Positions 38,627 through 53,929 of a stretch of 64,000 nt of DNA are shown here, one piece after another; the stretch's first letter is position 1, and every line of letters begins with the position of its first letter. A program made the translations under genes and the position numbers. The notes beneath the pieces were generated by a model. It did not search any database and had not been told where the DNA came from. It saw nothing but the letters and a program-made list of their open reading frames with translations. Source of the DNA: an uncultured Planctomycetales bacterium (GTDB taxonomy: Bacteria > Omnitrophota > Gorgyraeia > Zapsychrales > JANLHA01); NCBI GenBank assembly GCA_964489065.1, contig CAZAXH010000001.1, positions 85,106 through 149,105 of the forward strand, given 5' to 3'.

Positions 38627-38845
38627 TTAGGGGTTAAGAAGCGTCAACGTGCCGGCAGCATCACCCCAAACCATCCCAGCAACATCCACCATCCCCTGTA
38701 CCGGAGCATTAAGAGACCGTTCATACCCGGTTCGGAACTCACCGCCCGGGCTCATAAATACAAAAATGACAACCACAACGATTGTAAATAATAGTAAGAA
38801 TTCAATCGTGTGTTGCCCTGAGTGATTATGAATCATTTTTAACAT
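38627..38845 (-). CDS. Flp-family type IVb pilin (class III signal peptide)
   Basis: 72 aa. MLKMIHNHSGQHTIEFLLLFTIVVVVIFV matches the Flp prepilin G/xxxxEF(Y) processing motif followed by a hydrophobic helix. Confidence 0.6.
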   Translation of the reverse strand: MLKMIHNHSGQHTIEFLLLFTIVVVVIFVFMSPGGEFRTGYERSLNAPVQGMVDVAGMVWGDAAGTLTLLNP

Positions 38846-39585: not shown

Positions 39586-39622
39586 AAATCAAACCTCCTT
39601 TAACACCCGTCTTTGAGCCGGG

Positions 39623-41770
39623 TTAAAACACGGGCGTCATAATACGGCTCATTGTTCGATGAACAATAAAAGTCCCTCCATTTTGAAAAACGACCTCCCC
39701 CAAGGCACGCAACTGATCAGAACGCAGCGCCGGATAGGCTTCGCGTTCCTTGTCGCCCACAAAAATATAATCCACCATATATTTCTCAAACATCCTGGCA
39801 GACAATAAGGAAAAAGGTTCTTCATACATGCTCTTCACTTCCTCTATGCGGGGAGCCGGAATATCATACGACCCCCTCCACAGCCATTCATGCACCGGCC
39901 ATCCGACCACAGTGGGAAGCCCCGTGAACGCGGAAACCCGGCTGAAGTCGGAATAACTCGTCCCCACGGCCTCCAATATGACCGGTTGTCCGAAGACTTG
40001 GGCATTCAGCCATAATATAGCGGCGTAATCTTCCGGATATTTTTCTTTCAACCAATGGAGTCCGTTAAGCCCTTTAAAATTTTTAAATCCATACCGGTCC
40101 CGGTAACCAAAATAAGGATAGATCAAAAGCAGGCATAGGATCACGGAAATCCCGGTCGTTACGGCCGCCTGAATCCCTTCCCGAACCCTGTTGGCGGGGA
40201 TAAAATCTTTGAGCCAGATAAAACCCGACACCCAGCCCGTCGCGACTCCCATAAAAATAAAGCCCTCCAGGGTAAATTTAAACATCGTGTTCGCCCGGGG
40301 GTGTTCGGGATAAATATCCTTCACATAAATCACTTCCGGGATAATAATTAAAACCCAGGCCGCTATAATAAGCGTCAGGAGAAAGCCAAGGACACCCTGC
40401 TTTTTTCTCCGCACGGCACTGGCCACGCCCAAAAGAGCCCGATTCTGATGATCCGCGACCAAAAACGCGATCACGCTGAGAGCCCCTAACCCGCCCCATA
40501 CAACCAGCAAACGCCAGAAATCCGAACTCTCCTCCACCCATCTGACCCCACTGGATATTGAACGAAAATGTATCCACCAAAAGGACGAAACCCCGGCCGC
40601 CGCCGTCCCAATAAGCAGGATAGACGCGCACACATGCCCGAAACGGGACGGATAGAACATAACCAAAGTCATGCCGCATAAAAACAACAAAAGCGCGTAC
40701 ACTCCCCCGGACCAGGCGCTCGTCATAAAACAAACTCCCAACATCATGCCCGCCATCAAGGCCCTGGCATAAATTTTGCCCACCCGCTCGGAAACGAGAA
40801 CCGCATGATACCACAAAAAAACACATAACAGCAAACTGATCACCAAAGGAAAATTCCAGACATGGGCGTGCAGGTCACCAACGATTAATGAATAAGCCGG
40901 AAATTCATGGATAGTTTGCGGTATAAACCGGGTGGCGTCCGGGTACCAATAACCTTTCCAGCCGTGATTTTTGATTCCGTACCAAATCGTATGCGTGTTC
41001 CCGGCAAAGGCAACCAAAGAAACCGACACCAGGCCACCCCATAGCAACGGTTTTCTTGTGGCCTCCGTCTCAGTGCTTTTACAGATCAGATTCAAGACCA
41101 GACTGAACGTTTCCGCCATAAAAAGACCCATAATAAGCCCCAGCAGTAAATTATAACTATACGGCAACTCCAGGGACCAGTACCTGGTCATAACAGCACC
41201 CAGGAAATGGCCGAACGTATAATAATTCATAGTCTCCCCGGCAAACCACATATCCAAGACAGGGAAGGTCGGCGCACGCAGATAAGATGCGATAAGACCG
41301 ACATCCATGAATTTCTCCAAATCATTAATATCCGGCCCAAAACACCGGGCGACACCGAGAAATAAAAATCCGAAGGTGAATATAATCTCTTCCGCCACCA
41401 GCCATTTCCAACGCTCCTGCAAGAACAGGACGATTTCATCTTTGTTAAAATGAAAAACCCCCATGCTTACCACTGCAACACAGAAGAAGACACCAAGCAA
41501 TCCTCCCTGATTGTTGACGGGAAAACCCCAATGGGCCAACACCCATACCGGCATGGCCAACACCAGCCATATCAGCAGCCGGCCGAAAGCCCAGCCTGCG
41601 TCATAAAGCGTATTGCGGAGCCGGACAATCAGGACCGGCATCGCGAAAAGCTGCAGAAGCGACGTCATGAACCACGCTAAAATAATCAAACCAATATCTT
41701 TCATGCTTCTATGGCCCTTCCCTCTCCAACGGCCGCGCAGCCGCCCGCCCTGTATTCCTTCCCGGAGCAA
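39623..41770 (-). CDS. Large polytopic membrane protein (15+ TM helices), putative GT-C-fold glycosyltransferase
   Basis: 715 aa. Highly hydrophobic N-terminal two-thirds with a soluble C-terminal approximately 150 aa. Located in a cluster with DPM1-like GT2 and other GT-C-like genes. Confidence 0.5.
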   Translation of the reverse strand: MLREGIQGGRLRGRWRGKGHRSMKDIGLIILAWFMTSLLQLFAMPVLIVRLRNTLYDAGWAFGRLLIWLVLAMPVWVLAHWGFPVNNQGGLLGVFFCVAVVSMGVFHFNKDEIVLFLQERWKWLVAEEIIFTFGFLFLGVARCFGPDINDLEKFMDVGLIASYLRAPTFPVLDMWFAGETMNYYTFGHFLGAVMTRYWSLELPYSYNLLLGLIMGLFMAETFSLVLNLICKSTETEATRKPLLWGGLVSVSLVAFAGNTHTIWYGIKNHGWKGYWYPDATRFIPQTIHEFPAYSLIVGDLHAHVWNFPLVISLLLCVFLWYHAVLVSERVGKIYARALMAGMMLGVCFMTSAWSGGVYALLLFLCGMTLVMFYPSRFGHVCASILLIGTAAAGVSSFWWIHFRSISSGVRWVEESSDFWRLLVVWGGLGALSVIAFLVADHQNRALLGVASAVRRKKQGVLGFLLTLIIAAWVLIIIPEVIYVKDIYPEHPRANTMFKFTLEGFIFMGVATGWVSGFIWLKDFIPANRVREGIQAAVTTGISVILCLLLIYPYFGYRDRYGFKNFKGLNGLHWLKEKYPEDYAAILWLNAQVFGQPVILEAVGTSYSDFSRVSAFTGLPTVVGWPVHEWLWRGSYDIPAPRIEEVKSMYEEPFSLLSARMFEKYMVDYIFVGDKEREAYPALRSDQLRALGEVVFQNGGTFIVHRTMSRIMTPVF

Positions 41771-41897
41771 GACAGCCCCCGGAATTATCGTATTTGCTTT
41801 TTTATTCAGGTTTCTCTTGTGTTATAATAAAACACGAATTCACCGAACGAAACAAAAATATCCTTTTTTCTTCCCATTCAGTACCCATAAGGGCCTT

Positions 41898-42938
41898 ATG
41901 AATATCCTTATTACCGGAGCTTCAGGTTTTCTGGGAACGTACTGTTCCCAGGCGCTGCGTCAAGATAACCACAAACTAACACTCGTTGATATCGCGCCTC
42001 CGGAAAGCGAACGGCAAACACCAAGCTGCCGGTTTGAGAATGTCGACATACGCCGGGAACTCGCCATCGCCCCCCTCATCCGGGAGGCCGACATCGTCAT
42101 CCACGCGGCCGCGGCCTTACCGCTCTGGAAACGCGGCGATATTTTTTCAACGAATGTGGACGGCACGCGAAACATTTTAACGGCGGCCCGAGCGCACGGG
42201 GTCCGAAGGGTGGTCTATATCTCATCCACCGCCGTGTACGGGATTCCGAAAAGGCATCCGATCCTGGAGGATGATCGGCTCATGGGTGTGGGCCCATACG
42301 GTGAGTCTAAAATTCTGGCCGAAAAGCTGTGCCTTGACTTTATGAAAAAGGGGCTGAATGTCACCATCCTGCGGCCCAAAACGTTTCTGGGGACCGGCCG
42401 GCTGGGAGTTTTTGAAATCCTGTTTGACTGGGTTCATGACGGGAAAAAAATCCCGGTCATCGGCAGCGGACAGAATCGTTACCAGCTGCTCGCCGTTGAC
42501 GACCTTGTGGAGGTGATCTCCCTTTGCGTGCAGAACTCTTCCGAGGAATACAACGGCGTGTTTAACGTGGCGGCGGAAGCATTTGGAACCGTCCGGGAAG
42601 ACCTAGAGGCGCTCTTTGATTTCGCTCAATCCGGGTCACGGCTGCTGCCGACGCCCGCGCCTTTGGTCAAAAGCGCCCTGCGTTTCTTTGAAATGCTCCG
42701 CCTCTCCCCTCTTTATCAATGGGTGTATGACACGGCGGACAAGGATTCCTTCGTTTCCATCGACAAGCTAAAAAAGACGTTTCACTGGTCTCCCCGTTTT
42801 TCCAACGCTCAAATCCTGATCAAGACCTACGCGTGGTATCTTAAAAACTATTCCCTCATTAAAAGCAGGCAGGCCGGGATCACCCATACCGCGGCGTGGA
42901 AACAGGGGCTGCTGGGGCTGGTCAAAAAATTCATGTGA
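41898..42938 (+). CDS. NAD-dependent epimerase/dehydratase (SDR family)
   Basis: The ATG at 41898 gives MNILITGASGFLGTYCSQAL (GxxGxxG Rossmann) and a YGESK catalytic motif. The upstream part of the 41613 ORF is non-homologous. Confidence 0.7.
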   Translation: MNILITGASGFLGTYCSQALRQDNHKLTLVDIAPPESERQTPSCRFENVDIRRELAIAPLIREADIVIHAAAALPLWKRGDIFSTNVDGTRNILTAARAHGVRRVVYISSTAVYGIPKRHPILEDDRLMGVGPYGESKILAEKLCLDFMKKGLNVTILRPKTFLGTGRLGVFEILFDWVHDGKKIPVIGSGQNRYQLLAVDDLVEVISLCVQNSSEEYNGVFNVAAEAFGTVREDLEALFDFAQSGSRLLPTPAPLVKSALRFFEMLRLSPLYQWVYDTADKDSFVSIDKLKKTFHWSPRFSNAQILIKTYAWYLKNYSLIKSRQAGITHTAAWKQGLLGLVKKFM

Positions 42939-42971
42939 TTCGAGGGCTCACCCGGGGGCTGCTCCTGTCTT

Positions 42972-44708
42972 TTAAAAATCTTTCGTGGCGACTGGCTCGC
43001 CCGGGGCGACATCCCGCAACAAATCCCCGTCCAAGATAGACGTTCCCTCCCCTTGTTTCCTGAAAATATAAACCCGCGGGTGATCGTAAACGGAAAAGGA
43101 CTCATCCGCCCCGTCGTCCGGGATAAAGAAGCGCCGGCCGCCCAACGTTATCCCGGGATAAGAAACAAATTCCGCCACTTTATAAAAACCGAGCTCCCCC
43201 GAAAAAAGTTTGCGGTAATATTCCCCGGTGCGGGGATAACACTGCCGATAAACCCCGCAATCCGTGAGCCGTGATAGGGGGACAAAAAGCTTTTGAGAGG
43301 CAATAATGATATAATCCGCTTCCGCCAATCTTTGCGCGATTCCTTCCCATTTCCTGGCGTCATCCGGCTGATCGTAAAGCGGTAATTCCACAAAATGATA
43401 TTTTTCCACACCAAATAACGGCAGACGCTCATCCCAATGCTCCACCGCCAAAGTCGTCCCGGTCGGGATATGACGGTTAATCCAGCGCGAGGCCTCAACA
43501 CGGGTCAGCGGACGGCGGTAAATATCCATAAAAAAACCAACCCGCAAAACCAGGGCCCCGTACACAACAATTAAACAAATCCGCTGAATGCGTTTTGTTT
43601 TCATCACCCCTAAAACCCACTCCAGGCCCAGGGCGGCCATAACAGCGCCGAAGGGATACAAAGGCAACATGTAACGCATGAACTTCACCGCCGTGTGGCC
43701 CACAACGGCAAAATAATAAAGGTTCAGCAAAACATACACTACAATCAGCAGGCTGGGCGCCGCCCCCTTTCGAAACCGGGCCGGCCAATGCCCGATAAAA
43801 ACGGCTAATCCGCACAGCATAAAAAACGACAATACCGGCCCCATCCCCCACACAAACATGTTTTCCAAATAATAAGAATACGCCTTTGTGCCGACATATT
43901 GCAGGGTATAAGGGAAAACATACGGATCCCGGCTCATCCGCAACTGCAGCATCGTATCCTGCAGAAACCTTGAAAAATGCACATACGCGTACGGCATCAG
44001 GACCATGTGGCCAACCCCAAGGGTCAGGAGAAAAACAAGGCCGTATTTCAAAGGCCGGCCGGTGGGTTTCATGAAAACCCAGCGTGCCGGGCTCACTTGC
44101 CAGGCCAAAAGAAAAAAGATCACCGGGAGAAAAATAGCCGGCGTTATTTTCGTGGCCAGCAAAGCGGCCGTGGTCAAACCCAGGCCGGCCGCCCGGAGCG
44201 CCGAAGCCCTTTGCAAATAATTTAAAAGGAAAATAAAAAGAAGCGTCATGAAAAAATTCACCAGGTTGTCAACAACATAAAAATTACTGTTCTGAATGGG
44301 GAAAAAACTCAGCGCATAGAACGCTGCCGCGGCCAGCGCCAGGCGGGGACGTTGAAACACGCCTCCGGCCAGGCGGTAAACGAGGTAGACAACAAGGGTG
44401 TCCAGCAGGGACGCCAAAACCCGTCCCACGAAAAGCATCCCGTCATAATTCGCCCAGTCCGTGTGAAACAGCGCGTCACTCCATTGCGCCACAGCCCTCA
44501 AAAGATAAACAGGGAATGACCCATAATTGAAAAAGTCCGGGTCCAAATGGCGGAACAGATGGACCCGGCAGGCAACCAGCATCAGCATCCGTTCATCCGG
44601 GTGTTGCTGATAACCGTAATCCCAATTCACGCCGTAAAAACGGAAGCCCGCGGCGGTCAGAAGGATCATGATCAAAAAAAGGGTTGTTGGAAACGGCCGT
44701 GTTCTCAT
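42972..44708 (-). CDS. GT-C-fold glycosyltransferase, family 39/83-like (PMT/ArnT-type, lipid-phosphate-sugar dependent)
   Basis: 578 aa. N-terminus RFYGVNWDYGYQQHPDER is a DE-type motif in the first periplasmic loop, typical of PMT/ArnT enzymes. About 12 TM helices plus a C-terminal soluble domain. Confidence 0.55.
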   Translation of the reverse strand: MRTRPFPTTLFLIMILLTAAGFRFYGVNWDYGYQQHPDERMLMLVACRVHLFRHLDPDFFNYGSFPVYLLRAVAQWSDALFHTDWANYDGMLFVGRVLASLLDTLVVYLVYRLAGGVFQRPRLALAAAAFYALSFFPIQNSNFYVVDNLVNFFMTLLFIFLLNYLQRASALRAAGLGLTTAALLATKITPAIFLPVIFFLLAWQVSPARWVFMKPTGRPLKYGLVFLLTLGVGHMVLMPYAYVHFSRFLQDTMLQLRMSRDPYVFPYTLQYVGTKAYSYYLENMFVWGMGPVLSFFMLCGLAVFIGHWPARFRKGAAPSLLIVVYVLLNLYYFAVVGHTAVKFMRYMLPLYPFGAVMAALGLEWVLGVMKTKRIQRICLIVVYGALVLRVGFFMDIYRRPLTRVEASRWINRHIPTGTTLAVEHWDERLPLFGVEKYHFVELPLYDQPDDARKWEGIAQRLAEADYIIIASQKLFVPLSRLTDCGVYRQCYPRTGEYYRKLFSGELGFYKVAEFVSYPGITLGGRRFFIPDDGADESFSVYDHPRVYIFRKQGEGTSILDGDLLRDVAPGEPVATKDF

Positions 44709-44721
44709 GATAATCCTTATA

Positions 44722-46386
44722 CTAAAGGGCCTGGCCGGCGCATTCTTCCCCGACCGAATAAATCCGGTACCCTTCCTGATGGCTGAACACCGGTTCCCAG
44801 GTTTTCAAAACCGAGCTCTCGCGGATATCGGTATCGGGCCAGGCGCCGCGGCCCGGCTCCACCACGATATAATCAATTTTCTCCTGCTTCAAAACCCTGC
44901 AAGCCGACACGGTGTCGGTTGTTGGGAGAAACACCGGCTCGATAGTCCGCAGTCTTTCATAAGCCGGTAGCCCGGCGGACCAAGGGAAATAAACATAACC
45001 GATATAGATCCGCCGTCCCAATAAAGACGGCGGGCAGTACATCCCGGCCGTGCACAGGTACACCGCATCCGCCAGCGTGTTATCTTTAAGCCAAACCGCG
45101 GTCGGAGAGCGGCGATAATCCCTCAATTCTCCTTGATGATCGTTCAATATCGGGAACACATCCACGACCCCAGAAAAGGTCAACGCGAAAAGAAGAAGCA
45201 GGACGGCCGCCTTGGCCCAACGGGATCCCGACAAACACGACGCAAGGAAGCCCGCCACCGCGACCTGAATGGAGATCATAAAGAAATTAACCAGCTTATG
45301 ATTGTTGAACATGTCCGGAGAAAACCGCCAGAGATTGCTGACGGCAAAAAAAACCAACGCCACTCCCATCCAAATTTTCACTGTTTTTTTTCCCCACACA
45401 AAAACCGCCGGGATCATCACCGAGTAAAGCCCTAGGTTATAAAACCAATATCTCCCCCATTCCAAAAAATTTTTTGGCTGCTGAACAAAGCCCGGGCAGT
45501 ACACAATCTCCGGCGGCGACCCAGCGCGGATATACCACAAAGCCGGGACAGCGCACACAAACAGTAAAAAATAATAAAACCCCAGGGGACGAATCAGGGC
45601 CGGCGAGAAAATAAACCAAAGAATGACATACGTCAAAACAATCGGGATAATCACATGATGCAACAAAGGGGACAAGGCCGCCACCAGGACAATCGCGATC
45701 CTATAGCGGCGGGAAAGCAGCCTTCCTTCCCCAACGTATTTGAGCAGCGGCCACAAGCAGGCTAAAGCGAAAGCATAACTCAGCGCCAGATGCCTTTGAT
45801 TGGTATAAATATTCAGCGTCCAGAAAATACTGACAAGCCCATTCCAGGGACCGAAGCTGGAAAAATGCTGGGCGGTGGCAATATCTTTCCAGGAACCCCA
45901 ATGCAGAGGATGCTTCTGGAAAAAAAACAAAAAGGATAAAGAGCCGTTCAGCAAAAACAGCCCCACGGTGATAAGCCCCGCTGACCGCCTGGCGAACATC
46001 AATCTCCCCAGCCTGTAAAGAAGCCATAATAAAAACGTCAAGCCCGCGGCGCTCAGCAAATTTAAAGCCGCCGCAATATTCATCCCTGCCTTTTCCAGCA
46101 GTCCCACCCAGGAATAAAAAAGAAAATGGTAACGGATAGGTTCCCCAGCAAAAAGCGGGTGCTCGAGCGAGTAATTATCCCCGAGGGAGAAAGACCGAAT
46201 CAACGGGATATGCGCCCCGAAATCACTCCACAATTTTTCCCTGATCAAAAAAGTGTCATTCCGGTACTGAAAGGTATGCTGCATAAGAAACCAGCTCAGC
46301 GCGAAAAAAACCAGCAGCAAGGCGGCATCAAGAATCTTAGTCCCGGAAAGGGTGTTTAGAGGAAATATAGGGCTTCGGAATTTCAT
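44722..46386 (-). CDS. Polytopic membrane protein, GT-C-like (second paralogous-architecture enzyme)
   Basis: 554 aa. Same hydrophobic-core plus C-terminal soluble-domain architecture as the 42972 gene. No explicit DE motif identified. Confidence 0.45.
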   Translation of the reverse strand: MKFRSPIFPLNTLSGTKILDAALLLVFFALSWFLMQHTFQYRNDTFLIREKLWSDFGAHIPLIRSFSLGDNYSLEHPLFAGEPIRYHFLFYSWVGLLEKAGMNIAAALNLLSAAGLTFLLWLLYRLGRLMFARRSAGLITVGLFLLNGSLSFLFFFQKHPLHWGSWKDIATAQHFSSFGPWNGLVSIFWTLNIYTNQRHLALSYAFALACLWPLLKYVGEGRLLSRRYRIAIVLVAALSPLLHHVIIPIVLTYVILWFIFSPALIRPLGFYYFLLFVCAVPALWYIRAGSPPEIVYCPGFVQQPKNFLEWGRYWFYNLGLYSVMIPAVFVWGKKTVKIWMGVALVFFAVSNLWRFSPDMFNNHKLVNFFMISIQVAVAGFLASCLSGSRWAKAAVLLLLFALTFSGVVDVFPILNDHQGELRDYRRSPTAVWLKDNTLADAVYLCTAGMYCPPSLLGRRIYIGYVYFPWSAGLPAYERLRTIEPVFLPTTDTVSACRVLKQEKIDYIVVEPGRGAWPDTDIRESSVLKTWEPVFSHQEGYRIYSVGEECAGQAL

Positions 46387-46443
46387 AGCGATAGGACGGC
46401 CCTTCTTACCCGCCGTCTGAAAACCACCTCAACATGGTCCCGT

Positions 46444-47742
46444 TCAAGCGAAATAACGCTGCATAAAAGCGGAGACAGAACTTAAAATCCCGTCCATATT
46501 CAAATAATCCCAATGTCCGCTGCGGCCGACAAGATACAGCCCGAGACGCTCTAAGTGACGGGTCACTCTGTCTTTAACCGGGGCCGCGTCAACCGTGGGG
46601 ATAGGATAAGTGTAGGCCACGCGCTTCATCTCCGTGAGCGCGACATCCTCCCGCTTTGGAAGGATCCCCAGGCGGAGCAGATCCTCAACCACTCTTTCGC
46701 GCAAGGTTTCCGGCGACAAACCATCCTTCCCGTTTTTATCGGTAATTTCGGCGACAAGAGCCGGGGGGAAAGAAGGGCTGAAATTGTGCATCATGGTGAT
46801 CCGGAAAAAAATTTCCGTTTCCTTAAAAAAAGCCCAATGGCAGTCATTTAAAAGGGAGAACGCCGCCCCTGTCTTAAGTCCAACCATGACGAAATATGTG
46901 TCGTTCCATTTTAACTGCGGATAATAAGACTCCACGCCTTTGACGCTGATCATTTTCAACAGGTCCACCAAAGGAAGCGTGGAAATCACGGTATCCGCCT
47001 GTTCTTCGACGCCGTCCGAAGTGATAATCCGCCACCCGGAGGAATCCCGTCTGAGCTCCTTCACCTCCTTATAAAGATCAATCCGCGGCTCCAGACCCCG
47101 AGCCGTGTGGTCCATGAGCGCCTGAATCCCGTTCCGGGGATAAATAAATTTCCACTGATAAATTCGGCCGATCACTTCTTTTCCCAAAACGGCCAACAAA
47201 AAATTTTTTAATGACGCCGGATGAATCTTGGCGTTCACCAAGTCCATGGAAATCTGCTGAAGTTCGCAGTTCCATATCTTGCGGTTATACGGCGTCATAA
47301 AATGCTTGGCGATACCGAATCCCAAACCGTGATCGATCCAATCCTGCAAATCCTTGAATTCCGTCTGGGCCCGAAGCTTCGCCAACAGATACCCGCAAAT
47401 ACATTCCATCCGGTCCCGGGAGGGCAGACCCTTGATCCCCTCTTCAAAGGGATAATTGATCAGATAGCGGCGGGACATCCGGCCGGTATGATAAATAGAA
47501 ACACGCCGCTCCGCCGGGACATAATCCAACGGAAGGGCGTGCAGATATTCGGTCATCCCCGGGTCACGGCTATAAAGCGCGTGAACGCCGAAATCCCACC
47601 GATACTCACCGCTTATATTGGTTCTGGCCAAACCGCCGATCTGCCCCTCTTTTTCGAGGATTTTAAAATCGCGGCCTTTTAAGGCAAGCTGCCTTCCGCA
47701 TTCCAATCCGGCTAATCCGGCGCCCAGGATGACTGTCTTCAT
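46444..47742 (-). CDS. FAD-dependent oxidoreductase (amine-oxidase / UDP-galactopyranose-mutase-like Rossmann flavoprotein)
   Basis: 432 aa. N-terminal VILGAGLAGLECGRQLALKGRDFKILEKEGQIGG dinucleotide-binding motif. Confidence 0.6.
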   Translation of the reverse strand: MKTVILGAGLAGLECGRQLALKGRDFKILEKEGQIGGLARTNISGEYRWDFGVHALYSRDPGMTEYLHALPLDYVPAERRVSIYHTGRMSRRYLINYPFEEGIKGLPSRDRMECICGYLLAKLRAQTEFKDLQDWIDHGLGFGIAKHFMTPYNRKIWNCELQQISMDLVNAKIHPASLKNFLLAVLGKEVIGRIYQWKFIYPRNGIQALMDHTARGLEPRIDLYKEVKELRRDSSGWRIITSDGVEEQADTVISTLPLVDLLKMISVKGVESYYPQLKWNDTYFVMVGLKTGAAFSLLNDCHWAFFKETEIFFRITMMHNFSPSFPPALVAEITDKNGKDGLSPETLRERVVEDLLRLGILPKREDVALTEMKRVAYTYPIPTVDAAPVKDRVTRHLERLGLYLVGRSGHWDYLNMDGILSSVSAFMQRYFA

Positions 47743-48465
47743 CTAAGCAATCCTCCTGTAATATTCCCGCTTAAGTTTGAAAAGCCCCCCCAAAAGGCCC
47801 CAGACAATCCCCGGGAGGCGTGCCGGGCGGAAAATAGATGTTCCTCCAACCGGGCGGGGGTAATGACGGACAGGGATTTCCCTGACTTTATAACCGGACA
47901 AATGCGCCCTCAGGATAAATTCTGACATAACGCAATATTTCATATATTTCAACCGGGGGAGAACCCGTTCGATGACATCCCGCCGGATAAGCTTAAACCC
48001 GGAATCAATGTCTTTCATCCAAAGCCCGAACAGCGCCCCTATCAAATAGTTATACGTGAACGACAAAACCCTCCGATGGACGGGATCTTTCCGGGGCGTT
48101 TTGCACCCGCTTATAATATCACATGCGGAAACCCCGTTCAGCAATTTATGAATATCCTCGGGGTCATGCTGGCCGTCCGAATCGCTGAACAGCACCCACG
48201 GAGTACGGGCCAAAGACAAGGCGTCTTTAAACGCCCGCGTATATCCCTTCCTCTCGGGGGAACTGACAAGCGTAAACGGAATTTCCTTTTGCAGTTGAAG
48301 AAGGATATCCTTTGTGCCGTCGTCACTCCCGTCTTCCACGATCAGGAAGGTGACCGGAACCCCGCAGTGCATCACCGCGGCATAAAAATCCCGGACAACC
48401 TTTTCAATAATCCGGGATTCATTATAAACGGGCATGATCAAAGTCAGGGGTTCATCCATCATCAC
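47743..48465 (-). CDS. Family-2 glycosyltransferase, polyprenol-phosphate sugar synthase type (DPM1/ArnC-like)
   Basis: 240 aa. LIMPVYNES...IVEDGSDDGT...DSDGQHDP motifs. Confidence 0.75.
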   Translation of the reverse strand: MMMDEPLTLIMPVYNESRIIEKVVRDFYAAVMHCGVPVTFLIVEDGSDDGTKDILLQLQKEIPFTLVSSPERKGYTRAFKDALSLARTPWVLFSDSDGQHDPEDIHKLLNGVSACDIISGCKTPRKDPVHRRVLSFTYNYLIGALFGLWMKDIDSGFKLIRRDVIERVLPRLKYMKYCVMSEFILRAHLSGYKVREIPVRHYPRPVGGTSIFRPARLPGIVWGLLGGLFKLKREYYRRIA

Positions 48466-48498
48466 AAGTCTCGCGGTGTTTCAACCGGCAACATCATT

Positions 48499-49755
48499 TT
48501 ATCGTCCAGGCGCAGCGCCATACTCCCAGTCTAAATACGGCACAATAAACCGCGCCAGGGCCTCTCCGATAAACGTATAGCCTTCCGGTTTATAATGACA
48601 GTGGTCGTACAACATGTCCTGCCCATCCCGCGCGTATTTATCCCTTAACGCCGGAAGCAGGTCCAGATAAGGAAGCCGGCGCTTTCGCATTTCCGTGACA
48701 AATCGCTGCTGGGGTTCATTTCTTAATATTTGCGACGTAATTTGCGGCCTGACCGGAAAAAACACGAAAGCCAATTTAAAATCGGCGTCACGGCTCACCG
48801 TCCTCATCATATCAACGATCGGCAACATTTTCTGCCAGGCCCCCTCATCCCAGGCGTAGCCCCAATCCTGGAACGCGTTATGAATCTCCCAGTTAAACCC
48901 TTCTTCCGTATCCCACTCATGAGTTGCTTTCATGGGATGCGTTCCGGCGAAACGCTCTCTGGCCGCTTTGCGGTCATCGGGGAGCTGTTGTTCCCACTGA
49001 TATTCCTTATATAAAGCCCGCAACTTATCGATCTTGACCAGCACCAGTCTGGCCAAACGGCTGAACGTCAGCCATTCCGGAAGCCGGACAACTTTAAGCA
49101 AAGGGGATTCATGCGCATCATTAAGATACAGCCCCACCAGCACGATATCCGGTTTAACCGAAAGACCTGTTTCCATCAGCAGGGCAAACTCATTCTGCAG
49201 ATCAACGGCCCCGATCCCCGCGTTAATCACTTCCAGGCGGCGGCCGGGGAACATCCGCCGCAAGGCCTGCTCCATCACCGCCGGATAGGTCTGATCCTGC
49301 GAAACAAAATCCCCGAATGTGATGCTGTCTCCCAGGACAAGGATGCGGAGTTCCCCCGGCTGTTTGGGGCCAATGTCCCGGTGCCGGAAGCCCAGCGAAT
49401 TCGTCCGGATTTCGATGTCGGTCTGGGATAAAGCGTGATGACGCACCAGACCATGGGCATTTTTCTTCAAACGGGTCCCGGTATGCGAATACAAAAAAAA
49501 TCCCCCGGGGAGTTTCTCGCTGACAATCGTGCCGTCGTCACGGACACTGAAATCACCGTATTCCGTAAAATCGTTTTCGCCGGGTTTATTTAAATTTTCA
49601 ATGACTAGGCTCGGCGGCACCTTTACAAAAAGGCGGACACTCGCCTCCAAAATGGCCAATGTCGCCAGCACGCTTAAAACCACAAGCCCCCCAAGAACAT
49701 ACCATTGATCCCGTTTCCCGCCCACCCTCTCTCCGGATTCCTTATCCAGAATCAT
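48499..49755 (-). CDS. Membrane-anchored SGNH/GDSL-family hydrolase (putative glycan O-acyl esterase or acyltransferase)
   Basis: 418 aa. N-terminal TM plus ILVLGDSITFGD (SGNH block I). Confidence 0.55.
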   Translation of the reverse strand: MILDKESGERVGGKRDQWYVLGGLVVLSVLATLAILEASVRLFVKVPPSLVIENLNKPGENDFTEYGDFSVRDDGTIVSEKLPGGFFLYSHTGTRLKKNAHGLVRHHALSQTDIEIRTNSLGFRHRDIGPKQPGELRILVLGDSITFGDFVSQDQTYPAVMEQALRRMFPGRRLEVINAGIGAVDLQNEFALLMETGLSVKPDIVLVGLYLNDAHESPLLKVVRLPEWLTFSRLARLVLVKIDKLRALYKEYQWEQQLPDDRKAARERFAGTHPMKATHEWDTEEGFNWEIHNAFQDWGYAWDEGAWQKMLPIVDMMRTVSRDADFKLAFVFFPVRPQITSQILRNEPQQRFVTEMRKRRLPYLDLLPALRDKYARDGQDMLYDHCHYKPEGYTFIGEALARFIVPYLDWEYGAAPGR

Positions 49756-50464
49756 ACCCCGCCTCCCTGACTTCCCTGCCGATATAATTCACCTTGTACC
49801 ACCACATAAAAATCAGGTCAACAATGGTAGAGACAAAATATAAACGCGTCAAAGAAAATTTAGAGCGGCCATAGGGCCGGAGCCGGTGATGAACCGGCAT
49901 GACTTTATAAGAATATCCCGCAAGTTTAAAAAGGACCGGTATAAAACGGTGCACGCCCCGCATGGGCAGCAGGCTCTGAAGGGCCTGACGTTTCATCACT
50001 TTGAGGCCACATCCCGTGTCGCGCACATCATCACCCAAAACAAGCTTCCGGAAAAAGAAAGCAATGCGAGAAATGATAATTTTACTCCGGGGATCGCACC
50101 TCTTTTCCCGGGAACCAAAGACCGCGTCAACGCGCTCCAGTTCCGGCAGCATCGTGACAGCATCGCGGAAATCATTCTGCCCGTCCCCATCCATCATCAC
50201 GATGACCTCCCCCCGGGCAAAAGCCAATCCGGCAAAAAGCGCGGCGTCTTTTCCCCGGTTTCTGGAAAACGATAAAATTTTAAGGGAACTTAATGTTTGC
50301 GCATAACGGGTGAGTGCCTCTCTCGTCCCGTCCCGGCTGCCGTCATCCACAGCGATAATTTCACAGTCAAACGCCTTGTCCTGAACAACAGACTGAACTT
50401 CATCCAGGACGCAGGCCACATTATCCTGTTCATCATAAAACGGGATAATCAGCGATATTTTCAT
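49742..50464 (-). CDS. Family-2 glycosyltransferase, polyprenol-phosphate sugar synthase type (second copy)
   Basis: 240 aa. SLIIPFYDEQDN...IAVDDGSRDGT...DGDGQNDF motifs. 14-nt overlap with the upstream gene. Confidence 0.75.
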   Translation of the reverse strand: MKISLIIPFYDEQDNVACVLDEVQSVVQDKAFDCEIIAVDDGSRDGTREALTRYAQTLSSLKILSFSRNRGKDAALFAGLAFARGEVIVMMDGDGQNDFRDAVTMLPELERVDAVFGSREKRCDPRSKIIISRIAFFFRKLVLGDDVRDTGCGLKVMKRQALQSLLPMRGVHRFIPVLFKLAGYSYKVMPVHHRLRPYGRSKFSLTRLYFVSTIVDLIFMWWYKVNYIGREVREAGYDSG

Positions 50465-50545
50465 AACATATCCCTTTTAAACCTTTTTATAAAAAAAATC
50501 TGAACAGCCAACTGTGTCGCCCCCGGGAAAGTAAACATTTAAAAA

Positions 50546-51445
50546 TTAAAAATAAATAACGGCCGCGCAGACAATAAGCCAAAGCAAAACCGTTAATTTC
50601 AGGACATGGTCTTTCCAGAGTATCCGGACAGGATCTCCGCCCAGCAAACGCATATCCACCAGATAAATATAGCGGAAAATCCCGTAATAGGCCAAAGGAA
50701 CCGTGTAAATCAGGGCATGGGTATGGAATTTCGCGACCGTTTCCTTATCCATGACATACAACGCGTAACTCATAATTAAAGATGAAGCGATGATGGAGAT
50801 CATCCGGTCAATATAATACCGTGTATAGACATCTCCCCCCCCGTTATTTTGAGGCCCGAAATCAAGGTCATATTTACGCTTATTAAACCCGATAAACAAC
50901 GCCAACAGGACAGAACATATCAGGATCCAGCTGGATAAACTGACTTCGCTGACAATTCCACCGGCGGCGATCCGAAGGTAATAAAAAACGCCTATACAAA
51001 ACACATCAATAATAACGATTCGTTTAAGATATCGGGAATAAATCAGATTCAGGGAAAAATAAACCAGCAGTATTCCCGCGGCCCGGAGGTTTAAAAAATA
51101 CGCGCAGGACAATGAAACCGCTGAAAGGGCCAGGATCATAATGACGGCCTGACGGCCCGTCATTAAACCGGCGGCTAAAGGCCGGGTGCATTTATCCGGG
51201 TGCTTCTTGTCTTCCTCCAGGTCATACAGGTCATTGAACAGATACACCGCGCTGGAAGCTAGGGCAAAGGCAACACTCATGCCTAAAGTTTTTAGAAATG
51301 CCTGGGGCTCAAAAAGTTTACTTCCGAAAATAAGCGGCAAAAATATAAAAGCGCTTTTCACCCACTGATGCGGGCGAAGCGCTTTGAAAACAATTTGAGC
51401 CGAAAGTGTGAATTCCGGTTTAAGAGACAACTGTATTCTCATCAA
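50546..51445 (-). CDS. UbiA-family prenyltransferase, decaprenyl-phosphate phosphoribosyltransferase-like
   Basis: 299 aa. ALRPHQWVKSAFIFLPLIFG start and NDLYDLEEDKKHP Asp-rich motif, 8-9 TM helices. Confidence 0.65.
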   Translation of the reverse strand: MMRIQLSLKPEFTLSAQIVFKALRPHQWVKSAFIFLPLIFGSKLFEPQAFLKTLGMSVAFALASSAVYLFNDLYDLEEDKKHPDKCTRPLAAGLMTGRQAVIMILALSAVSLSCAYFLNLRAAGILLVYFSLNLIYSRYLKRIVIIDVFCIGVFYYLRIAAGGIVSEVSLSSWILICSVLLALFIGFNKRKYDLDFGPQNNGGGDVYTRYYIDRMISIIASSLIMSYALYVMDKETVAKFHTHALIYTVPLAYYGIFRYIYLVDMRLLGGDPVRILWKDHVLKLTVLLWLIVCAAVIYF

Positions 51446-51633
51446 ATTTTTCCTTAAATAACTATCGGCATACGGCTAACCCAGGGCAAAGGATGCAATC
51501 TTTCAATATGACTCCCGAATTTAAGAACCTGATCACAACACCTTACGCTCTAGAACATTACAAAATGAATTATAACAAAAAGACATCTCCTGTCAATTGG
51601 CTCAACCCTGGGATTCACGGTTTATAAAAAACA

Positions 51634-53911: not shown

Positions 53912-53929
53912 TTTACACCAGCCTCCTTT

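What the first reader, a model, noticed from the sequence alone, without database searches (positions are those of the whole stretch)
39623..51445. Lipid-carrier glycosylation cluster with three GT-C-like enzymes, two DPM1-like GT2s, a UbiA-type prenyl-phosphate sugar synthase, a flavoprotein and an SDR epimerase
UbiA-family enzymes of this type make decaprenyl-phospho-ribose in Corynebacterineae. That product is then epimerised at C2 by an FAD oxidase plus an SDR reductase to give the arabinose donor, which GT-C arabinosyltransferases consume. This cluster contains a UbiA-like enzyme, a Rossmann-type FAD oxidoreductase (the GR2/UGM-like type, not the VAO-type DprE1), an SDR epimerase on the opposite strand, two DPM1-like polyprenol-phosphate hexose synthases, an SGNH esterase or acyltransferase, and three large GT-C-like membrane proteins, one with a PMT/ArnT-type DE loop.

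Together this looks like a periplasmic, lipid-linked-sugar-dependent glycosylation system in a diderm, producing either a furanose-containing glycan or protein O-glycosylation. It is analogous to, but enzymatically distinct from, the mycobacterial DPA pathway.
Basis: inference. Interest (0 to 1): 0.6.

Follow-up and report, generated by a model that had tools for sequence, protein, structure and literature searches.

The report
Lipid-carrier furanose glycosylation operon, Omnitrophota
An uncultured Omnitrophota bacterium carries an operon that most likely loads sugars, including five-membered-ring (furanose) sugars, onto a membrane lipid carrier and attaches them to surface molecules outside the cytoplasm; it is a new mix of known enzyme types, not a new mechanism.

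Summary
The operon encodes:
- a UbiA enzyme that passes NCBI's curated cut-off for decaprenyl-phosphate phosphoribosyltransferase;
- two ArnC/DPM1-like GT2 enzymes;
- a membrane-anchored SGNH protein;
- a flavoprotein;
- an extended SDR on the opposite strand;
- three GT-C proteins. Two were confirmed by AlphaFold plus Foldseek. The third is DUF2298 and is homologous to one of those two.

The proposed mechanism is only partly right. The flavoprotein is not a DprE1 substitute. It is a full-length relative of eukaryotic-type UDP-galactopyranose mutase and keeps most of that enzyme's substrate-binding and active-site residues. Its family pairs with a small GT2 in 32 of 80 genomes, almost always without UbiA.

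The best reading is a periplasmic glycosylation system with several donors:
- polyprenyl-P-ribofuranose from UbiA;
- an NDP-furanose, probably UDP-Galf, from the mutase;
- polyprenyl-P-sugars from the GT2 enzymes.

The closest known system is the three-component pentofuranose pathway (Kelly et al. 2024). The Mycobacterium tuberculosis glf–glfT2–ubiA–aftB locus has parallel gene content.

The GT-C and SDR core is shared with candidate-phyla-radiation (CPR) Microgenomates; the SDR is 60% identical. A neighbouring pilin-like protein with a (Thr-Pro)n tail is a candidate acceptor. I call it a new variant of a known kind, of moderate interest.

The parts
51569..51596 (-). Candidate operon promoter: TTGACA, 16-nt spacer, TATAAT with TG extension; second hexamer ends about 125 bp upstream of the UbiA start
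   Evidence: The only 12/12 consensus match in 36800-52600. This is a consensus match only and has not been shown to function.
50546..51442 (-). UbiA-superfamily polyprenyl-phosphate 5-phosphoribosyltransferase (PPPRS/DPPRS type)
   Evidence: NF008977 scores 242.7 bits against a cut-off of 234. Residues 10-298 align with 9-300 of M. tuberculosis DPPRS 8j8j, E 7e-36; the next PDB family (4-hydroxybenzoate octaprenyltransferase) is at 5e-4. The loop-II motif N-D-L-Y-D-L-E-E-D fits the NDxxDxxxD pattern.
49742..50464 (-). GT2 'b': polyprenyl-phosphate sugar synthase-like glycosyltransferase (PgfS/ArnC-like)
   Evidence: Pfam Glycos_transf_2, E 1e-25. Top NCBIfam hits are PgfS 1e-35 and ArnC 3e-27, both below the equivalog cut-offs.
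48499..49755 (-). SGNH/GDSL hydrolase or acyltransferase with an N-terminal membrane anchor; overlaps GT2b by 14 bp
   Evidence: Lipase_GDSL_2 scores 35.6 bits against a cut-off of 32.9. The N-terminus is basic and is followed by a hydrophobic helix. A close homologue sits in the operon in every related Omnitrophota locus that covers this position, and a weak GDSL-type neighbour follows the 554-family gene in L092.
47743..48465 (-). GT2 'a': ArnC/DPM1-like glycosyltransferase; its stop codon abuts the flavoprotein start codon
   Evidence: Glycos_transf_2, E 3e-23. Best solved relatives are ArnC 2.8e-13, archaeal Dol-P-Man synthase 5mlz 2.4e-8 and GtrB 1e-4; no galactofuranosyltransferase is among the hits. 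A GT2 found by iterated search with the two window GT2s lies next to the flavoprotein in 32 of 80 genome loci.
46444..47742 (-). Eukaryotic-type UDP-galactopyranose-mutase-like flavoenzyme (predicted NDP-sugar pyranose/furanose mutase)
   Evidence: The family profile matches A. fumigatus and T. cruzi UGM end to end, E 9e-84 and 2e-82; the next family is at 6e-16, N-terminus only. AfUGM residues H63, Y104, F106, Y162, N163, W167, W315, R327, Y419, R447 and Y453 are conserved. Substitutions are R182K, Q107E and Y317F. Residue roles are taken from PMC3322874.
44722..46386 (-). GT-C-fold glycosyltransferase, a divergent DUF2298-type family (554 aa)
   Evidence: AlphaFold2 pLDDT 90.2. The 24 Foldseek PDB hits with E <= 0.001 are all GT-C enzymes: DPY19 8.8e-9, STT3/AglB/PglB, AftA, ArnT, AftD. 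Eight of 45 homologues hit Pfam DUF2298. D55 in the first loop is invariant.
42972..44708 (-). GT-C-fold glycosyltransferase, PMT_2/GT39-like (578 aa), with an invariant HPDER loop
   Evidence: AlphaFold2 pLDDT 87.5. Top Foldseek hits are all GT-C: STT3 5e-8, AglB, ALG12/ALG9, Pmt4 8e-5, AftD, PglB. Most homologues carry PF13231 and NCBI names them GT39. The window protein itself scores below the PMT cut-off, 19.5 bits against 22.7.
41898..42938 (+). Extended SDR (NAD-dependent epimerase/dehydratase family), convergent with the 578-aa gene and divergent from the DUF2298 gene
   Evidence: Pfam Epimerase, E 1e-40. GxxGxxG and YGESK motifs are present. Best PDB hits are UDP-GlcA decarboxylase 1.5e-17 and GalE-type epimerases, and no equivalog cut-off is reached. 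It is 60% identical, without gaps, to the SDR of the CPR locus L007.
39623..41704 (-). DUF2298 / Chlor_Arch_YYY membrane protein (693 aa from the probable start); GT-C-like by homology
   Evidence: TIGR03662 scores 395.9 bits against a cut-off of 300.25; PF10060 E 3.5e-75. Its family profile aligns with the 554-aa family over 456 columns, hhalign probability 97.4%, E 1e-11. No structure was modelled here.
39151..39585 (-). Conserved 144-aa charged soluble protein immediately downstream of DUF2298; function unknown; may be co-transcribed
   Evidence: Present in the same position in L006, L010, L089 and L090. No family hit.
38627..38845 (-). 72-aa pilin-like protein with a class III (type IV pilin-like) signal peptide
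   Evidence: PF04021 Class_IIIsignal, E 4.8e-4, below the cut-off. A 79-aa gene occupies the same position in L089 and L090; its sequence was not compared.
37144..38493 (-). 449-aa secreted Cys-rich protein with the same QxxIEY pilin-like N-terminus and a C-terminal (Thr-Pro)n tail of about 90 residues (about 37147-37428); candidate O-glycosylation acceptor (inference only)
   Evidence: Sequence. The same architecture is conserved next to the cluster in L090 and L089 (phmmer E 1e-223).

Best explanation
This is one operon, plus a divergent gene pair, for extracytoplasmic glycosylation that uses polyprenyl-phosphate-linked sugar donors. It lies in a Candidatus Omnitrophota bacterium.

**Cytoplasmic face**
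1. The UbiA-type enzyme transfers ribofuranose-5-phosphate from PRPP to polyprenyl phosphate. A phosphatase not encoded in this window then yields polyprenyl-P-ribofuranose.
2. The UGM-like flavoenzyme converts a nucleotide pyranose sugar, most likely UDP-Galp, into the furanose form.
3. The two ArnC/DPM1-like GT2 enzymes load sugars from nucleotide donors onto polyprenyl phosphate. GT2a, whose stop codon abuts the mutase start codon, probably uses the mutase product.
4. The extended SDR is an NAD-dependent epimerase. It acts either on a UDP-sugar that feeds these steps or, like ORF13 of Citrobacter youngae O2, on the lipid-linked pentofuranose.

**Periplasmic face**
After flipping by an unidentified flippase, three GT-C enzymes (one PMT_2-like, two DUF2298-type) transfer the sugars to a periplasmic or surface acceptor. 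The membrane-anchored SGNH protein may add or remove an acyl group. A plausible acceptor is the neighbouring pilin-like protein with a (Thr-Pro)n tail.

**Shown here:** family and fold assignments, conservation of key residues, and synteny.
**Inferred:** every substrate, the pairing of donors with GT-C enzymes, the membrane topology and the acceptor.
For: - **UbiA is the PPPRS type.** It passes a curated cut-off, aligns over its full length with solved DPPRS and has the NDxxDxxxD motif. The role of that motif is described in PMC11127046.
- **The flavoprotein is UGM-like.** E 9e-84 end to end. The residues that contact the diphosphate (R327, Y162, Y419, Y453; R182 becomes K), the ribose (N163), the uracil (Y104, F106) and the His-63 loop are conserved.
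- **Mutase and GT2 form a pair.** A same-strand GT2 lies next to the UGM-like gene in 32 of 80 genome loci across bacterial and archaeal phyla. In Woesebacteria the neighbour is a sugar-phosphate nucleotidyltransferase.
- **GT2a resembles polyprenyl-P sugar synthases.** Its nearest solved relatives are ArnC, Dol-P-Man synthase and GtrB. The top NCBIfam hits of GT2a are all polyprenyl-P sugar synthases; for GT2b the top two and the fourth are.
- **The large membrane proteins are GT-C.** The two modelled proteins have the GT-C fold with invariant first-loop acidic residues. The DUF2298 protein is homologous to one of them.
- **The genes look co-transcribed.** They are tightly packed or overlapping on one strand behind a perfect sigma-70 consensus.
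- **The cluster is conserved** in five related assemblies.
- **There is a published precedent** for PPPRS + GT-C + optional SDR epimerase (PMC11127046).
Against: - No 5-phosphatase (PAP2 or HAD/PRP type) and no MATE, SMR or GtrA-type flippase was found among the window ORFs scanned. Two components of the published three-component scheme are therefore missing locally.
- None of the GT2, SDR or flavoprotein hits reaches an equivalog cut-off, so no substrate is established.
- The flavoprotein has R182K, Q107E and Y317F relative to A. fumigatus UGM. R182K lowers activity in that enzyme. Q107 contacts uracil, so the nucleotide or the sugar may differ.
- In CPR relatives the GT-C + SDR core occurs with a different flavoprotein (PRK07233 type) and with no UbiA within 10 kb. 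No GT-C family can therefore be tied to a particular donor.
- The link to the acceptor rests on adjacency only.
Confidence: 0.7

Rival explanations
1. The flavoprotein oxidises polyprenyl-P-ribose at C2 and the SDR reduces the keto intermediate. This gives polyprenyl-P-arabinofuranose for GT-C arabinosyltransferases, so the pair is a non-homologous replacement for DprE1/DprE2.
For: - A PPPRS-type UbiA, a flavoprotein, an SDR and GT-C enzymes lie in one cluster.
- On one unrelated high-GC metagenome contig (L104), a UGM-like flavoprotein gene overlaps a PPPRS-like UbiA gene.
- In CPR loci an oxidase-like flavoprotein (PRK07233) and the same SDR flank the 554-family GT-C. An oxidase and reductase pair acting on a lipid-linked sugar is therefore conceivable in that version of the cluster.
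Against: - The window flavoprotein keeps the UDP-binding and catalytic residues of UGM.
- Of 80 genome loci with a family member, only L010 has a UbiA, and a small GT2 is the common neighbour.
- The SDR occurs in CPR loci that have no UbiA within 10 kb.
- The SDR is an extended, 346-aa, GalE-type enzyme, not the classical DprE2 type.
- In the published systems Araf correlates with true DprE1/DprE2 homologues.
Confidence: 0.08
2. A Kelly-type pentofuranose system with an ORF13-like epimerase. The SDR alone epimerises polyprenyl-P-ribofuranose (for example to xylofuranose). The UGM and GT2 genes supply a separate Galf or hexose decoration.
For: - C. youngae O2 ORF13 is a GalE-like SDR with TGxxGxxG and YxxxK motifs, and it alone converts the Ribf side chain to Xylf.
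- The window SDR has both motifs and matches no nucleotide-sugar equivalog.
- Its best NCBIfam hit (HpnA), and OleD further down the list, belong to families named for lipid pathways.
Against: - The same SDR (60% identical) sits in CPR clusters that lack a nearby UbiA.
Confidence: 0.25
3. A lactococcal PSP-like or mycobacterial galactan-like assembly. One GT2 primes polyprenyl phosphate with a sugar. The other GT2 is a cytoplasmic Leloir galactofuranosyltransferase that uses UDP-Galf to extend the lipid-linked oligosaccharide. The GT-C enzymes then polymerise or ligate the flipped oligosaccharide, and do not transfer single sugars.
For: - In lactococci a GT2 makes GlcNAc-P-C55. This is elongated in the cytoplasm, including with Galf from UDP-Galf, then flipped and handled by GT-C enzymes WpsH and WpsJ (PMC10821137).
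- From established knowledge, the M. tuberculosis locus glf (Rv3809c), glfT2 (Rv3808c, a GT2), Rv3807c, ubiA (Rv3806c) and aftB (Rv3805c, a GT-C) has the same family content as this operon.
Against: - GT2a is 240 aa, and its solved relatives are ArnC, Dol-P-Man synthase and GtrB. No galactofuranosyltransferase appears at E <= 0.001.
- No Wzx-type flippase is present in the operon.
Confidence: 0.2
4. The genes are neighbours without a common function, that is, a chance aggregation of envelope genes.
For: Synteny among genomes at 56-97% identity is expected from relatedness alone.
Against: - Gene boundaries are overlapping or abutting and the genes share one strand.
- The GT-C + SDR + DUF2298 core is retained across phyla, between Omnitrophota and CPR.
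- Every gene belongs to a glycan-assembly family.
Confidence: 0.03

Closest known systems
Three-component extracytoplasmic pentofuranose glycosylation (Citrobacter youngae O1/O2 ORF12-15; Kelly et al., PNAS 2024, PMC11127046)
   Same: Both have a UbiA-type polyprenyl phosphoribose synthase with the NDxxDxxxD motif, GT-C transferase(s) acting outside the cytoplasm, and an optional GalE-like SDR epimerase that diversifies the pentose.
   Different: - The synthase here has no fused HAD phosphatase domain, and no separate phosphatase or MATE flippase was found in the window.
- There are three GT-C enzymes of other sequence families (PMT_2-like and DUF2298-type), and GT136 membership was not testable.
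- This operon additionally has two ArnC-like GT2 enzymes, a UGM-like mutase and an SGNH protein.
- The host is an uncultured Omnitrophota bacterium and the acceptor is unknown.
Mycobacterial arabinogalactan locus and DPA pathway (Rv3805c aftB, Rv3806c ubiA, Rv3807c, Rv3808c glfT2, Rv3809c glf; DprE1/DprE2)
   Same: A DPPRS-type UbiA (full-length homology to 8j8j), a UGM, a GT2 and GT-C enzymes are encoded together. Furanose sugars come from two routes, PRPP and UDP-Galf.
   Different: - There is no VAO-type DprE1, no classical-SDR DprE2 and no PAP2 phosphatase.
- The UGM is the eukaryotic type, not the prokaryotic Glf type (TIGR00031 scores 23 bits against a cut-off of 303.75).
- The GT2 enzymes are 240-aa and ArnC-like, not the 637-aa GlfT2.
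- The GT-C enzymes show only fold-level similarity to AftA and AftD.
GtrB/GtrC-type and ArnC/ArnT-type periplasmic glycosylation; Streptococcus mutans Pgf (PgfS, PgfE, PgfM1, PgfM2)
   Same: A GT2 loads a sugar on undecaprenyl phosphate, a GT-C transfers it outside the cytoplasm, and an SDR epimerase is encoded alongside. GT2b's best NCBIfam hit is PgfS (1e-35), and GT2a's best solved relative is ArnC.
   Different: All scores are far below the equivalog cut-offs. The GT2 enzymes lack the two C-terminal transmembrane helices. No GtrA-like flippase is present. Furanose-supplying enzymes are added.
Pseudomonas aeruginosa group IV pilin D-arabinofuranosylation (PPPRS, DprE1/E2 homologues, TfpW GT-C)
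   Same: A PPPRS-type UbiA and GT-C enzyme(s) are encoded close to pilin-like genes. Thr/Ser-rich pilin sequence is the likely acceptor.
   Different: There are no DprE1/E2 homologues here. The pilin-like neighbours have class III or Flp-like signals and a (Thr-Pro)n tail. Glycosylation of them is purely inferred.

Membership tests
Polyprenyl-phosphate 5-phosphoribosyltransferase (DPPRS/PPPRS, UbiA superfamily) | Reaches the curated NCBIfam score for decaprenyl-phosphate phosphoribosyltransferase | tested here: met
   NF008977 scores 242.7 bits against a cut-off of 234. Haem O synthase and the quinone, menaquinone and other named prenyltransferase models score 55 bits or less.
Polyprenyl-phosphate 5-phosphoribosyltransferase (DPPRS/PPPRS, UbiA superfamily) | Full-length homology to the solved enzyme and the loop-II NDxxDxxxD motif needed for activity | tested here: met
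   Residues 10-298 align with 9-300 of 8j8j, E 7e-36. NDLYDLEED aligns with NDVRDVEAD. Motif roles are from PMC11127046.
Polyprenyl-phosphate 5-phosphoribosyltransferase (DPPRS/PPPRS, UbiA superfamily) | PRPP-dependent formation of polyprenyl-P-ribose-5-P | not testable with these tools
   Needs a membrane enzyme assay.
Three-component pentofuranose system (PMC11127046) | A phosphoribose 5-phosphatase (fused HAD/PRP domain or separate PAP2-type enzyme) | tested here: not met
   The UbiA protein is 298 aa with no extra domain. No PAP2 or HAD hit appeared among the window ORFs scanned. The only lipid phosphatase is PgpA at 25427-25894, next to a CDP-alcohol phosphatidyltransferase gene. One may be encoded elsewhere in the genome.
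Three-component pentofuranose system (PMC11127046) | A dedicated flippase (MATE or SMR family) in the locus | tested here: not met
   No MATE, SMR, GtrA or Wzx family hit in or beside the operon, and the intergenic gaps are too short to hide one.
Three-component pentofuranose system (PMC11127046) | A GT-C transferase of family GT136 | tested here: inconclusive
   The GT-C fold is shown for two proteins. No GT136 sequence or model was available, so family membership could not be tested.
Mycobacterial DPA epimerase pair (DprE1/DprE2) | VAO-type FAD oxidase (DprE1) plus classical short SDR of about 250 aa (DprE2) | tested here: not met
   The flavoprotein is of the Amino_oxidase/UGM type. The SDR is a 346-aa extended epimerase/dehydratase type.
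UDP-galactopyranose mutase (eukaryotic type) | End-to-end homology to solved UGM | tested here: met
   The family profile matches 3ute/3uka at E 9e-84 and 4dsg at 2e-82 over profile positions 4-432. The single sequence gives E 7e-28 and 26.8% identity over 400 residues.
UDP-galactopyranose mutase (eukaryotic type) | Catalytic and substrate-binding residues (His-63 loop, R182, R327, Y162, Y317, Y419, Y453, N163, Y104, Q107, W315) | tested here: inconclusive
   Conserved: H63, Y104, F106, Y162, N163, W167, W315, R327, Y419, R447, Y453. Changed: R182K, Q107E, Y317F, G62V. These changes are compatible with a mutase, possibly with a different nucleotide or sugar.
UDP-galactopyranose mutase (eukaryotic type) | Curated family score | tested here: not met
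   TIGR00031 (prokaryotic UGM) scores 23.1 bits against 303.75. PRK07208.1-3 (unnamed) scores 149.8 against 380. No curated model for eukaryotic-type UGM is in the libraries.
GT-C fold glycosyltransferases | Multi-helix membrane domain with the GT-C architecture, an acidic residue in the first extracytoplasmic loop, and a C-terminal soluble domain | tested here: met
   - 554-aa protein: the 24 Foldseek hits with E <= 0.001 are all GT-C, and D55 is invariant.
- 578-aa protein: the top 24 hits are all GT-C, and D38/E39 are invariant.
- 715-aa protein: homology to the 554 family at 97.4% probability over 456 columns; not modelled.
GT39 protein O-mannosyltransferase (PMT) | Pfam PMT/PMT_2 above threshold, DE motif in loop 1, MIR domains in loop 5 | tested here: not met
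   The window protein scores 19.5 bits on PMT against a cut-off of 22.7. The DE motif is present. No MIR domain was detected. Homologues hit PMT_2 and NCBI names them GT39. It is PMT_2-like, not a demonstrated GT39 member.
Polyprenyl-phosphate glycosyltransferases of GT2 (DPM1/ArnC/GtrB) | GT2 catalytic domain whose closest characterised relatives are lipid-phosphate sugar synthases | tested here: met
   Pfam GT2, E 3e-23 and 1e-25. For GT2a the PDB hits are ArnC, DPMS and GtrB. The top NCBIfam hits are DPhHxTase, AglJ, ArnC, PpgS and PgfS for GT2a, and PgfS, ArnC and PpgS for GT2b, all below the equivalog cut-offs.
DUF2298 / TIGR03662 Chlor_Arch_YYY | Curated score | tested here: met
   395.9 bits against a cut-off of 300.25; PF10060 scores 254 bits.

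The most novel reading that the evidence does not exclude
The conserved pair of UGM-like mutase and small ArnC-like GT2 makes a polyprenyl-phosphate-linked hexofuranose (for example undecaprenyl-P-Galf). I found no report of this class of lipid donor in two full-text literature searches. A DUF2298-type GT-C family with no characterised member would then use it to galactofuranosylate a surface protein or glycan outside the cytoplasm. In this operon that route is combined with the PRPP-derived polyprenyl-P-ribofuranose route, so one machine would decorate a (Thr-Pro)n-tailed pilin-like protein with two kinds of furanose. The GT-C + SDR core would have moved horizontally between CPR Microgenomates and Omnitrophota.
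Probability: 0.2. Interest if true: 0.7.

Novelty: new variant of a known kind. Interest (0 to 1): 0.45.

Why it matters
Furanose sugars are absent from mammals and sit at the centre of the cell envelopes of several pathogens. Known routes put them into glycans in one of two ways: in the cytoplasm from UDP-Galf or PRPP, or outside the cytoplasm from polyprenyl-P-pentofuranoses.

This operon joins a PRPP-dependent lipid-pentofuranose synthase, a eukaryotic-type UGM homologue and ArnC-like GT2 enzymes with GT-C families that have no characterised member. It does so in two poorly understood groups, Omnitrophota and CPR Microgenomates.

If the mutase and GT2 pair makes a lipid-linked hexofuranose, that would add a new donor class to bacterial and archaeal glycobiology. 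It would also give DUF2298 proteins a function. Even on the conservative reading, the finding gives concrete, testable candidates for surface glycosylation in ultra-small uncultured bacteria.

Tried and rejected
1. Sequence and profile searches of the 554-aa and 578-aa proteins against PDB sequences found nothing useful. Only structure prediction plus Foldseek resolved them.
2. hhalign of the 554-family profile against the single DUF2298 sequence gave 0.45% probability. It rose to 97.4% only with a six-sequence DUF2298 alignment. The 554 family against the 578 family gave no convincing alignment.
3. I first assumed that the flavoprotein in the CPR 'GT2, flavoprotein, GT-C' core was the same UGM-like enzyme. 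It is not. It is PRK07233-type and lacks every UGM motif. I dropped the idea that 'UGM + GT-C' is a core conserved across phyla.
4. I tested whether large membrane proteins near UGM-like genes in other phyla are GT-C enzymes. Of ten tested, six were H+-pyrophosphatases, MFS or SSF transporters and three had no family hit. Only one, in the Omnitrophota locus L009, had a PMT_2 hit; its 603-aa neighbour had none.
5. A PPPRS-adjacent 559-aa DUF6798 protein in L097 shows only a weak C-terminal resemblance to the 554 family. It therefore cannot be used to assign the pentofuranose donor to that GT-C.
6. Literature searches for a lipid-phosphate galactofuranose donor, and for Galf in Methanospirillum, returned nothing. 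DUF2298 is mentioned in only two unrelated papers.
7. The supplement of PMC11127046 did not yield an ORF13 sequence for comparison.
8. An exact-sequence look-up of the window flavoprotein found no record.
9. The metagenome scan with UbiA returned only 12 loci, most of them short.

Full report
**Observation**

The region 39623-51445 holds nine genes. Eight are on the minus strand and one, the SDR, is on the plus strand. Spacing is tight:
- the SGNH gene overlaps GT2b by 14 bp;
- the stop codon of GT2a abuts the start codon of the flavoprotein;
- the 554-aa and 578-aa genes are 13 bp apart.

The only perfect sigma-70 consensus in 36.8-52.6 kb (TTGACA, 16 nt, TATAAT, with a TG extension) lies about 125 bp upstream of the UbiA start, on the same strand. 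This is a consensus match, not proof of function.

Two starts need correcting. The SDR most likely begins at 41898 (346 aa) and the DUF2298 gene at 41704 (693 aa). These are the lengths seen in homologues.

**Organism and context**

A GenBank metagenome-assembled genome, 'Candidatus Omnitrophota bacterium isolate Go_SlDig_bin_317', carries the same genes in the same order. Its flavoprotein is 97% identical (L010).

The window also encodes MlaD/E/F, an AsmA-like protein and an Alginate_exp-family outer-membrane protein, so the host is a diderm.

The whole cluster and its flanks are conserved in four further Omnitrophota-like assemblies at 56-82% flavoprotein identity (L001/L090, L006, L089). 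These carry one or two additional large membrane proteins or extra GT genes. The locus is therefore a variable glycosylation island.

**The UbiA homologue**

- It reaches NCBI's curated cut-off for decaprenyl-phosphate phosphoribosyltransferase (NF008977, 242.7 bits against 234). Haem O synthase and the quinone, menaquinone and other named prenyltransferase models score 55 bits or less.
- It aligns over its whole length with the solved M. tuberculosis enzyme 8j8j (E 7e-36). The next PDB family is at 5e-4.
- It carries NDLYDLEED. This fits the NDxxDxxxD loop that is required for activity in the mycobacterial and Citrobacter enzymes (PMC11127046).

**The three large membrane proteins**

- *715-aa ORF.* It is DUF2298 / TIGR03662 (395.9 bits against 300.25).
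- *554-aa protein.* It has no Pfam, NCBIfam or PDB sequence hit. With 45 homologues AlphaFold2 gave pLDDT 90.2. The 24 Foldseek PDB hits with E <= 0.001 are all GT-C enzymes: DPY19, STT3/AglB/PglB, AftA, ArnT and AftD. Eight of 45 homologues hit Pfam DUF2298. A DUF2298 family profile aligns with the 554 family over 456 columns at 97.4% probability. The 554-aa and 715-aa proteins are therefore distant paralogue types, and DUF2298 is GT-C-like by homology.
- *578-aa protein.* It is sub-threshold on Pfam PMT. Its homologues carry PMT_2 and NCBI names them GT39. Its model (pLDDT 87.5) matches STT3, AglB, ALG9/ALG12, Pmt4, AftD and PglB. H36-P37-D38-E39-R40 is invariant.

The second refutation condition is not met either.

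None of the three can be placed in a CAZy family with the tools available. GT136, the family of the only characterised extracytoplasmic ribofuranosyltransferase, could not be tested.

**The flavoprotein**

- A 39-sequence family profile matches Aspergillus fumigatus and Trypanosoma cruzi UDP-galactopyranose mutases end to end (E 9e-84 and 2e-82). The next family, amine oxidases, matches only the N-terminal FAD-binding motif at 6e-16.
- I mapped the A. fumigatus residues whose roles are described in PMC3322874 onto the window protein:
  - the His-63 loop is kept (H54);
  - the diphosphate ligands R327, Y162, Y419 and Y453 are kept (R314, Y152, Y379, Y413);
  - the ribose ligand N163 and W167 are kept;
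  - the uracil-stacking Y104 and F106 are kept;
  - the eukaryote-specific W315 is kept.
- The differences are R182K, Q107E and Y317F.
- Family members occur next to a sugar-phosphate nucleotidyltransferase in Woesebacteria.
- In 32 of 80 representative genomes a small GT2 lies directly beside the gene on the same strand. These genomes span Omnitrophota, Micrarchaeota, Aenigmatarchaeota, Bathyarchaeia, Methanoregula, Planctomycetota and Polyangia. Only one of those 80 loci has a UbiA.

The protein is best read as a nucleotide-sugar pyranose/furanose mutase that works with GT2a, not as a DprE1 analogue. The Q107E change and the nucleotidyltransferase neighbours leave the identity of the nucleotide and the sugar open.

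**The GT2 enzymes, the SDR and the SGNH protein**

- *GT2a.* Its solved relatives are ArnC (2.8e-13), archaeal Dol-P-Man synthase (2.4e-8) and GtrB (1e-4). No galactofuranosyltransferase is among the hits.
- *GT2b.* Its best NCBIfam hits are PgfS and ArnC.
- *SDR.* It has GxxGxxG and YGESK motifs, hits UDP-GlcA decarboxylase and GalE-type structures only weakly, and reaches no equivalog cut-off.
- *SGNH protein.* It has a basic N-terminus and one hydrophobic helix, which suggests a periplasmic catalytic domain. This is an inference from the sequence.

**Comparison across phyla**

The closest non-Omnitrophota homologues of the 554-aa and 578-aa proteins are in CPR Microgenomates, at 40-47% identity. 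In CPR contigs (L007, L008, L091), and on one short contig of unassigned phylum (L092), the following core recurs: the 554-family GT-C, a protein of about 195 aa (absent from L092), the SDR, one to three PMT_2-like GT-C enzymes, and DUF2298.

The SDR is 60% identical to its L007 counterpart, with no gap over all 346 residues. That points to horizontal transfer and strong constraint.

Two things differ in the three CPR loci where that position is covered (L007, L008, L091):
- No UbiA lies within 10 kb.
- The flavoprotein upstream of the 554-family gene is a different enzyme. It is PRK07233-type (406-461 bits against a cut-off of 252) and lacks every UGM motif.

The Omnitrophota operon therefore looks like a CPR-type GT-C/SDR core to which a PPPRS, an SGNH protein, a second GT2 and the mutase and GT2 pair have been added. 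A consequence is that no GT-C can be assigned to a particular donor from co-occurrence.

**Known systems**

The nearest published system is the three-component pathway for extracytoplasmic pentofuranose addition (PMC11127046). It consists of a PPPRS, a phosphatase, a MATE flippase, a GT-C and an optional epimerase. The epimerase is an SDR for Xylf or DprE1/DprE2 for Araf.

The window has the PPPRS, GT-C enzymes and an SDR. It has no recognisable phosphatase or flippase.

From established knowledge, the M. tuberculosis locus Rv3805c-Rv3809c (aftB, ubiA, Rv3807c, glfT2, glf) has strikingly parallel family content: GT-C, PPPRS, GT2 and UGM. One high-GC metagenome contig (L104) has a UGM-like gene overlapping a PPPRS-like gene. 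This supports the idea that the two furanose routes tend to be co-encoded. It does not show that the flavoprotein acts on the lipid-linked ribose.

A lactococcal-type model is a live rival. In that model a GT2 primes C55-P, cytoplasmic enzymes elongate the chain with Galf, and GT-C enzymes ligate the flipped product (PMC10821137).

**Candidate acceptor**

Just downstream of the cluster, on the same strand, lie two proteins with class III or Flp-like signal peptides:
- a 72-aa protein (PF04021, E 4.8e-4, sub-threshold);
- a 449-aa Cys-rich protein that ends in about 90 residues of (Thr-Pro)n.

The large protein is conserved in the same position in L089 and L090. One CPR locus (L008) has PilN and PilO genes and two Ser/Thr/Pro-rich membrane-anchored proteins next to its cluster. 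This suggests protein O-glycosylation, as with PMT enzymes or Pseudomonas TfpW. It rests on adjacency alone.

**Verdict**

This is a new variant of known lipid-carrier glycosylation systems, in an understudied phylum, and it involves GT-C families with no characterised member.

The most novel reading that the evidence leaves open is a lipid-linked hexofuranose donor made by the mutase and GT2 pair. It is untested, and I put it at about 20%.

Noticed in passing
window 347-7963 (- strand): A second, separate nucleotide-sugar and glycan gene cluster. It encodes a B12-binding radical SAM enzyme, a Polysacc_synt_2 (PseB/CapD-like) dehydratase, two further epimerase/dehydratase SDRs, a methyltransferase-GT2 fusion and a methyltransferase.
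   Followed up: no
L007:8705-9994, L008:8719-10017, L091:8690-10000: In CPR Microgenomates the gene just upstream of the 554-family GT-C is a PRK07233-type flavoprotein (phytoene-desaturase/HpnE-like; NF005560 scores 406 and 461 bits in L007 and L008 against a cut-off of 252). It has no UGM motifs. Its role is unknown: it could be an oxidase acting on a lipid-linked sugar or on the polyprenol itself.
   Followed up: partly
window 41898-42938 vs L007:12370-13410: The SDR is 60% identical, with no gaps over all 346 residues, between this Omnitrophota bacterium and a CPR bacterium. The adjacent GT-C enzymes are far less conserved (40-47%). This suggests horizontal transfer and an unusually constrained enzyme.
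   Followed up: partly
L009-L088 (80 genome loci): A gene pair of a eukaryotic-type UGM-like flavoprotein and a small ArnC/DPM1-like GT2 of about 240 aa is adjacent on the same strand in 32 of 80 genomes from many bacterial and archaeal phyla. Outside Omnitrophota it has no nearby GT-C. It may be a widespread two-gene module for making a lipid-linked furanose or a furanosyl lipid.
   Followed up: partly
L104:165-1996: On a short high-GC metagenome contig, a UGM-like (PRK07208-type) flavoprotein gene overlaps the start of a PPPRS-like UbiA gene (49% identity to the window UbiA over residues 19-92). This is the only such adjacency seen outside the Omnitrophota cluster.
   Followed up: partly
L097:6788-10852: A PPPRS-like UbiA (41% identity) is preceded, with overlap, by a GT87-family GT-C and a 559-aa membrane protein with a DUF6798 C-terminal domain. 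Seven of 45 members of the 554 family also hit that domain.
   Followed up: partly
window 37144-38493: The 449-aa protein contains about eight tandem Cys-rich modules of the form C-x2-C-x-(P)CCGDG-x-C, placed between a pilin-like N-terminus and the (Thr-Pro)n tail. It matches no Pfam family. In L089 the public gene calls read this gene in the wrong frame.
   Followed up: partly
window 52414-56178 (- strand): A conserved neighbouring gene set recurs next to the cluster in L001/L090 and L006, and in part in L089. It comprises a ParA/MinD-type ATPase fused to a glycogen-binding CBM48/AMPK1_CBM domain, a DUF4870/MamF-like small membrane protein, a 194-aa protein with a weak CBM_11 hit and an Alginate_exp-family outer-membrane protein. 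Its function is unknown.
   Followed up: no
window 34957-36780 (- strand): A 607-aa protein with a multi-helix membrane N-terminus and a spermine/spermidine-synthase domain (E 3e-14). It is conserved downstream of the pilin-like genes in L089 and L090.
   Followed up: no
L001/L090:11957-15274; L089:11694-13181: Close relatives carry one or two extra large membrane proteins (562 and 532 aa, or 495 aa) between the 578-aa GT-C and the SDR. They have no Pfam hit and no phmmer similarity to the window's GT-C enzymes. The locus appears to be a hot spot for gain and loss of putative GT-C genes.
   Followed up: no
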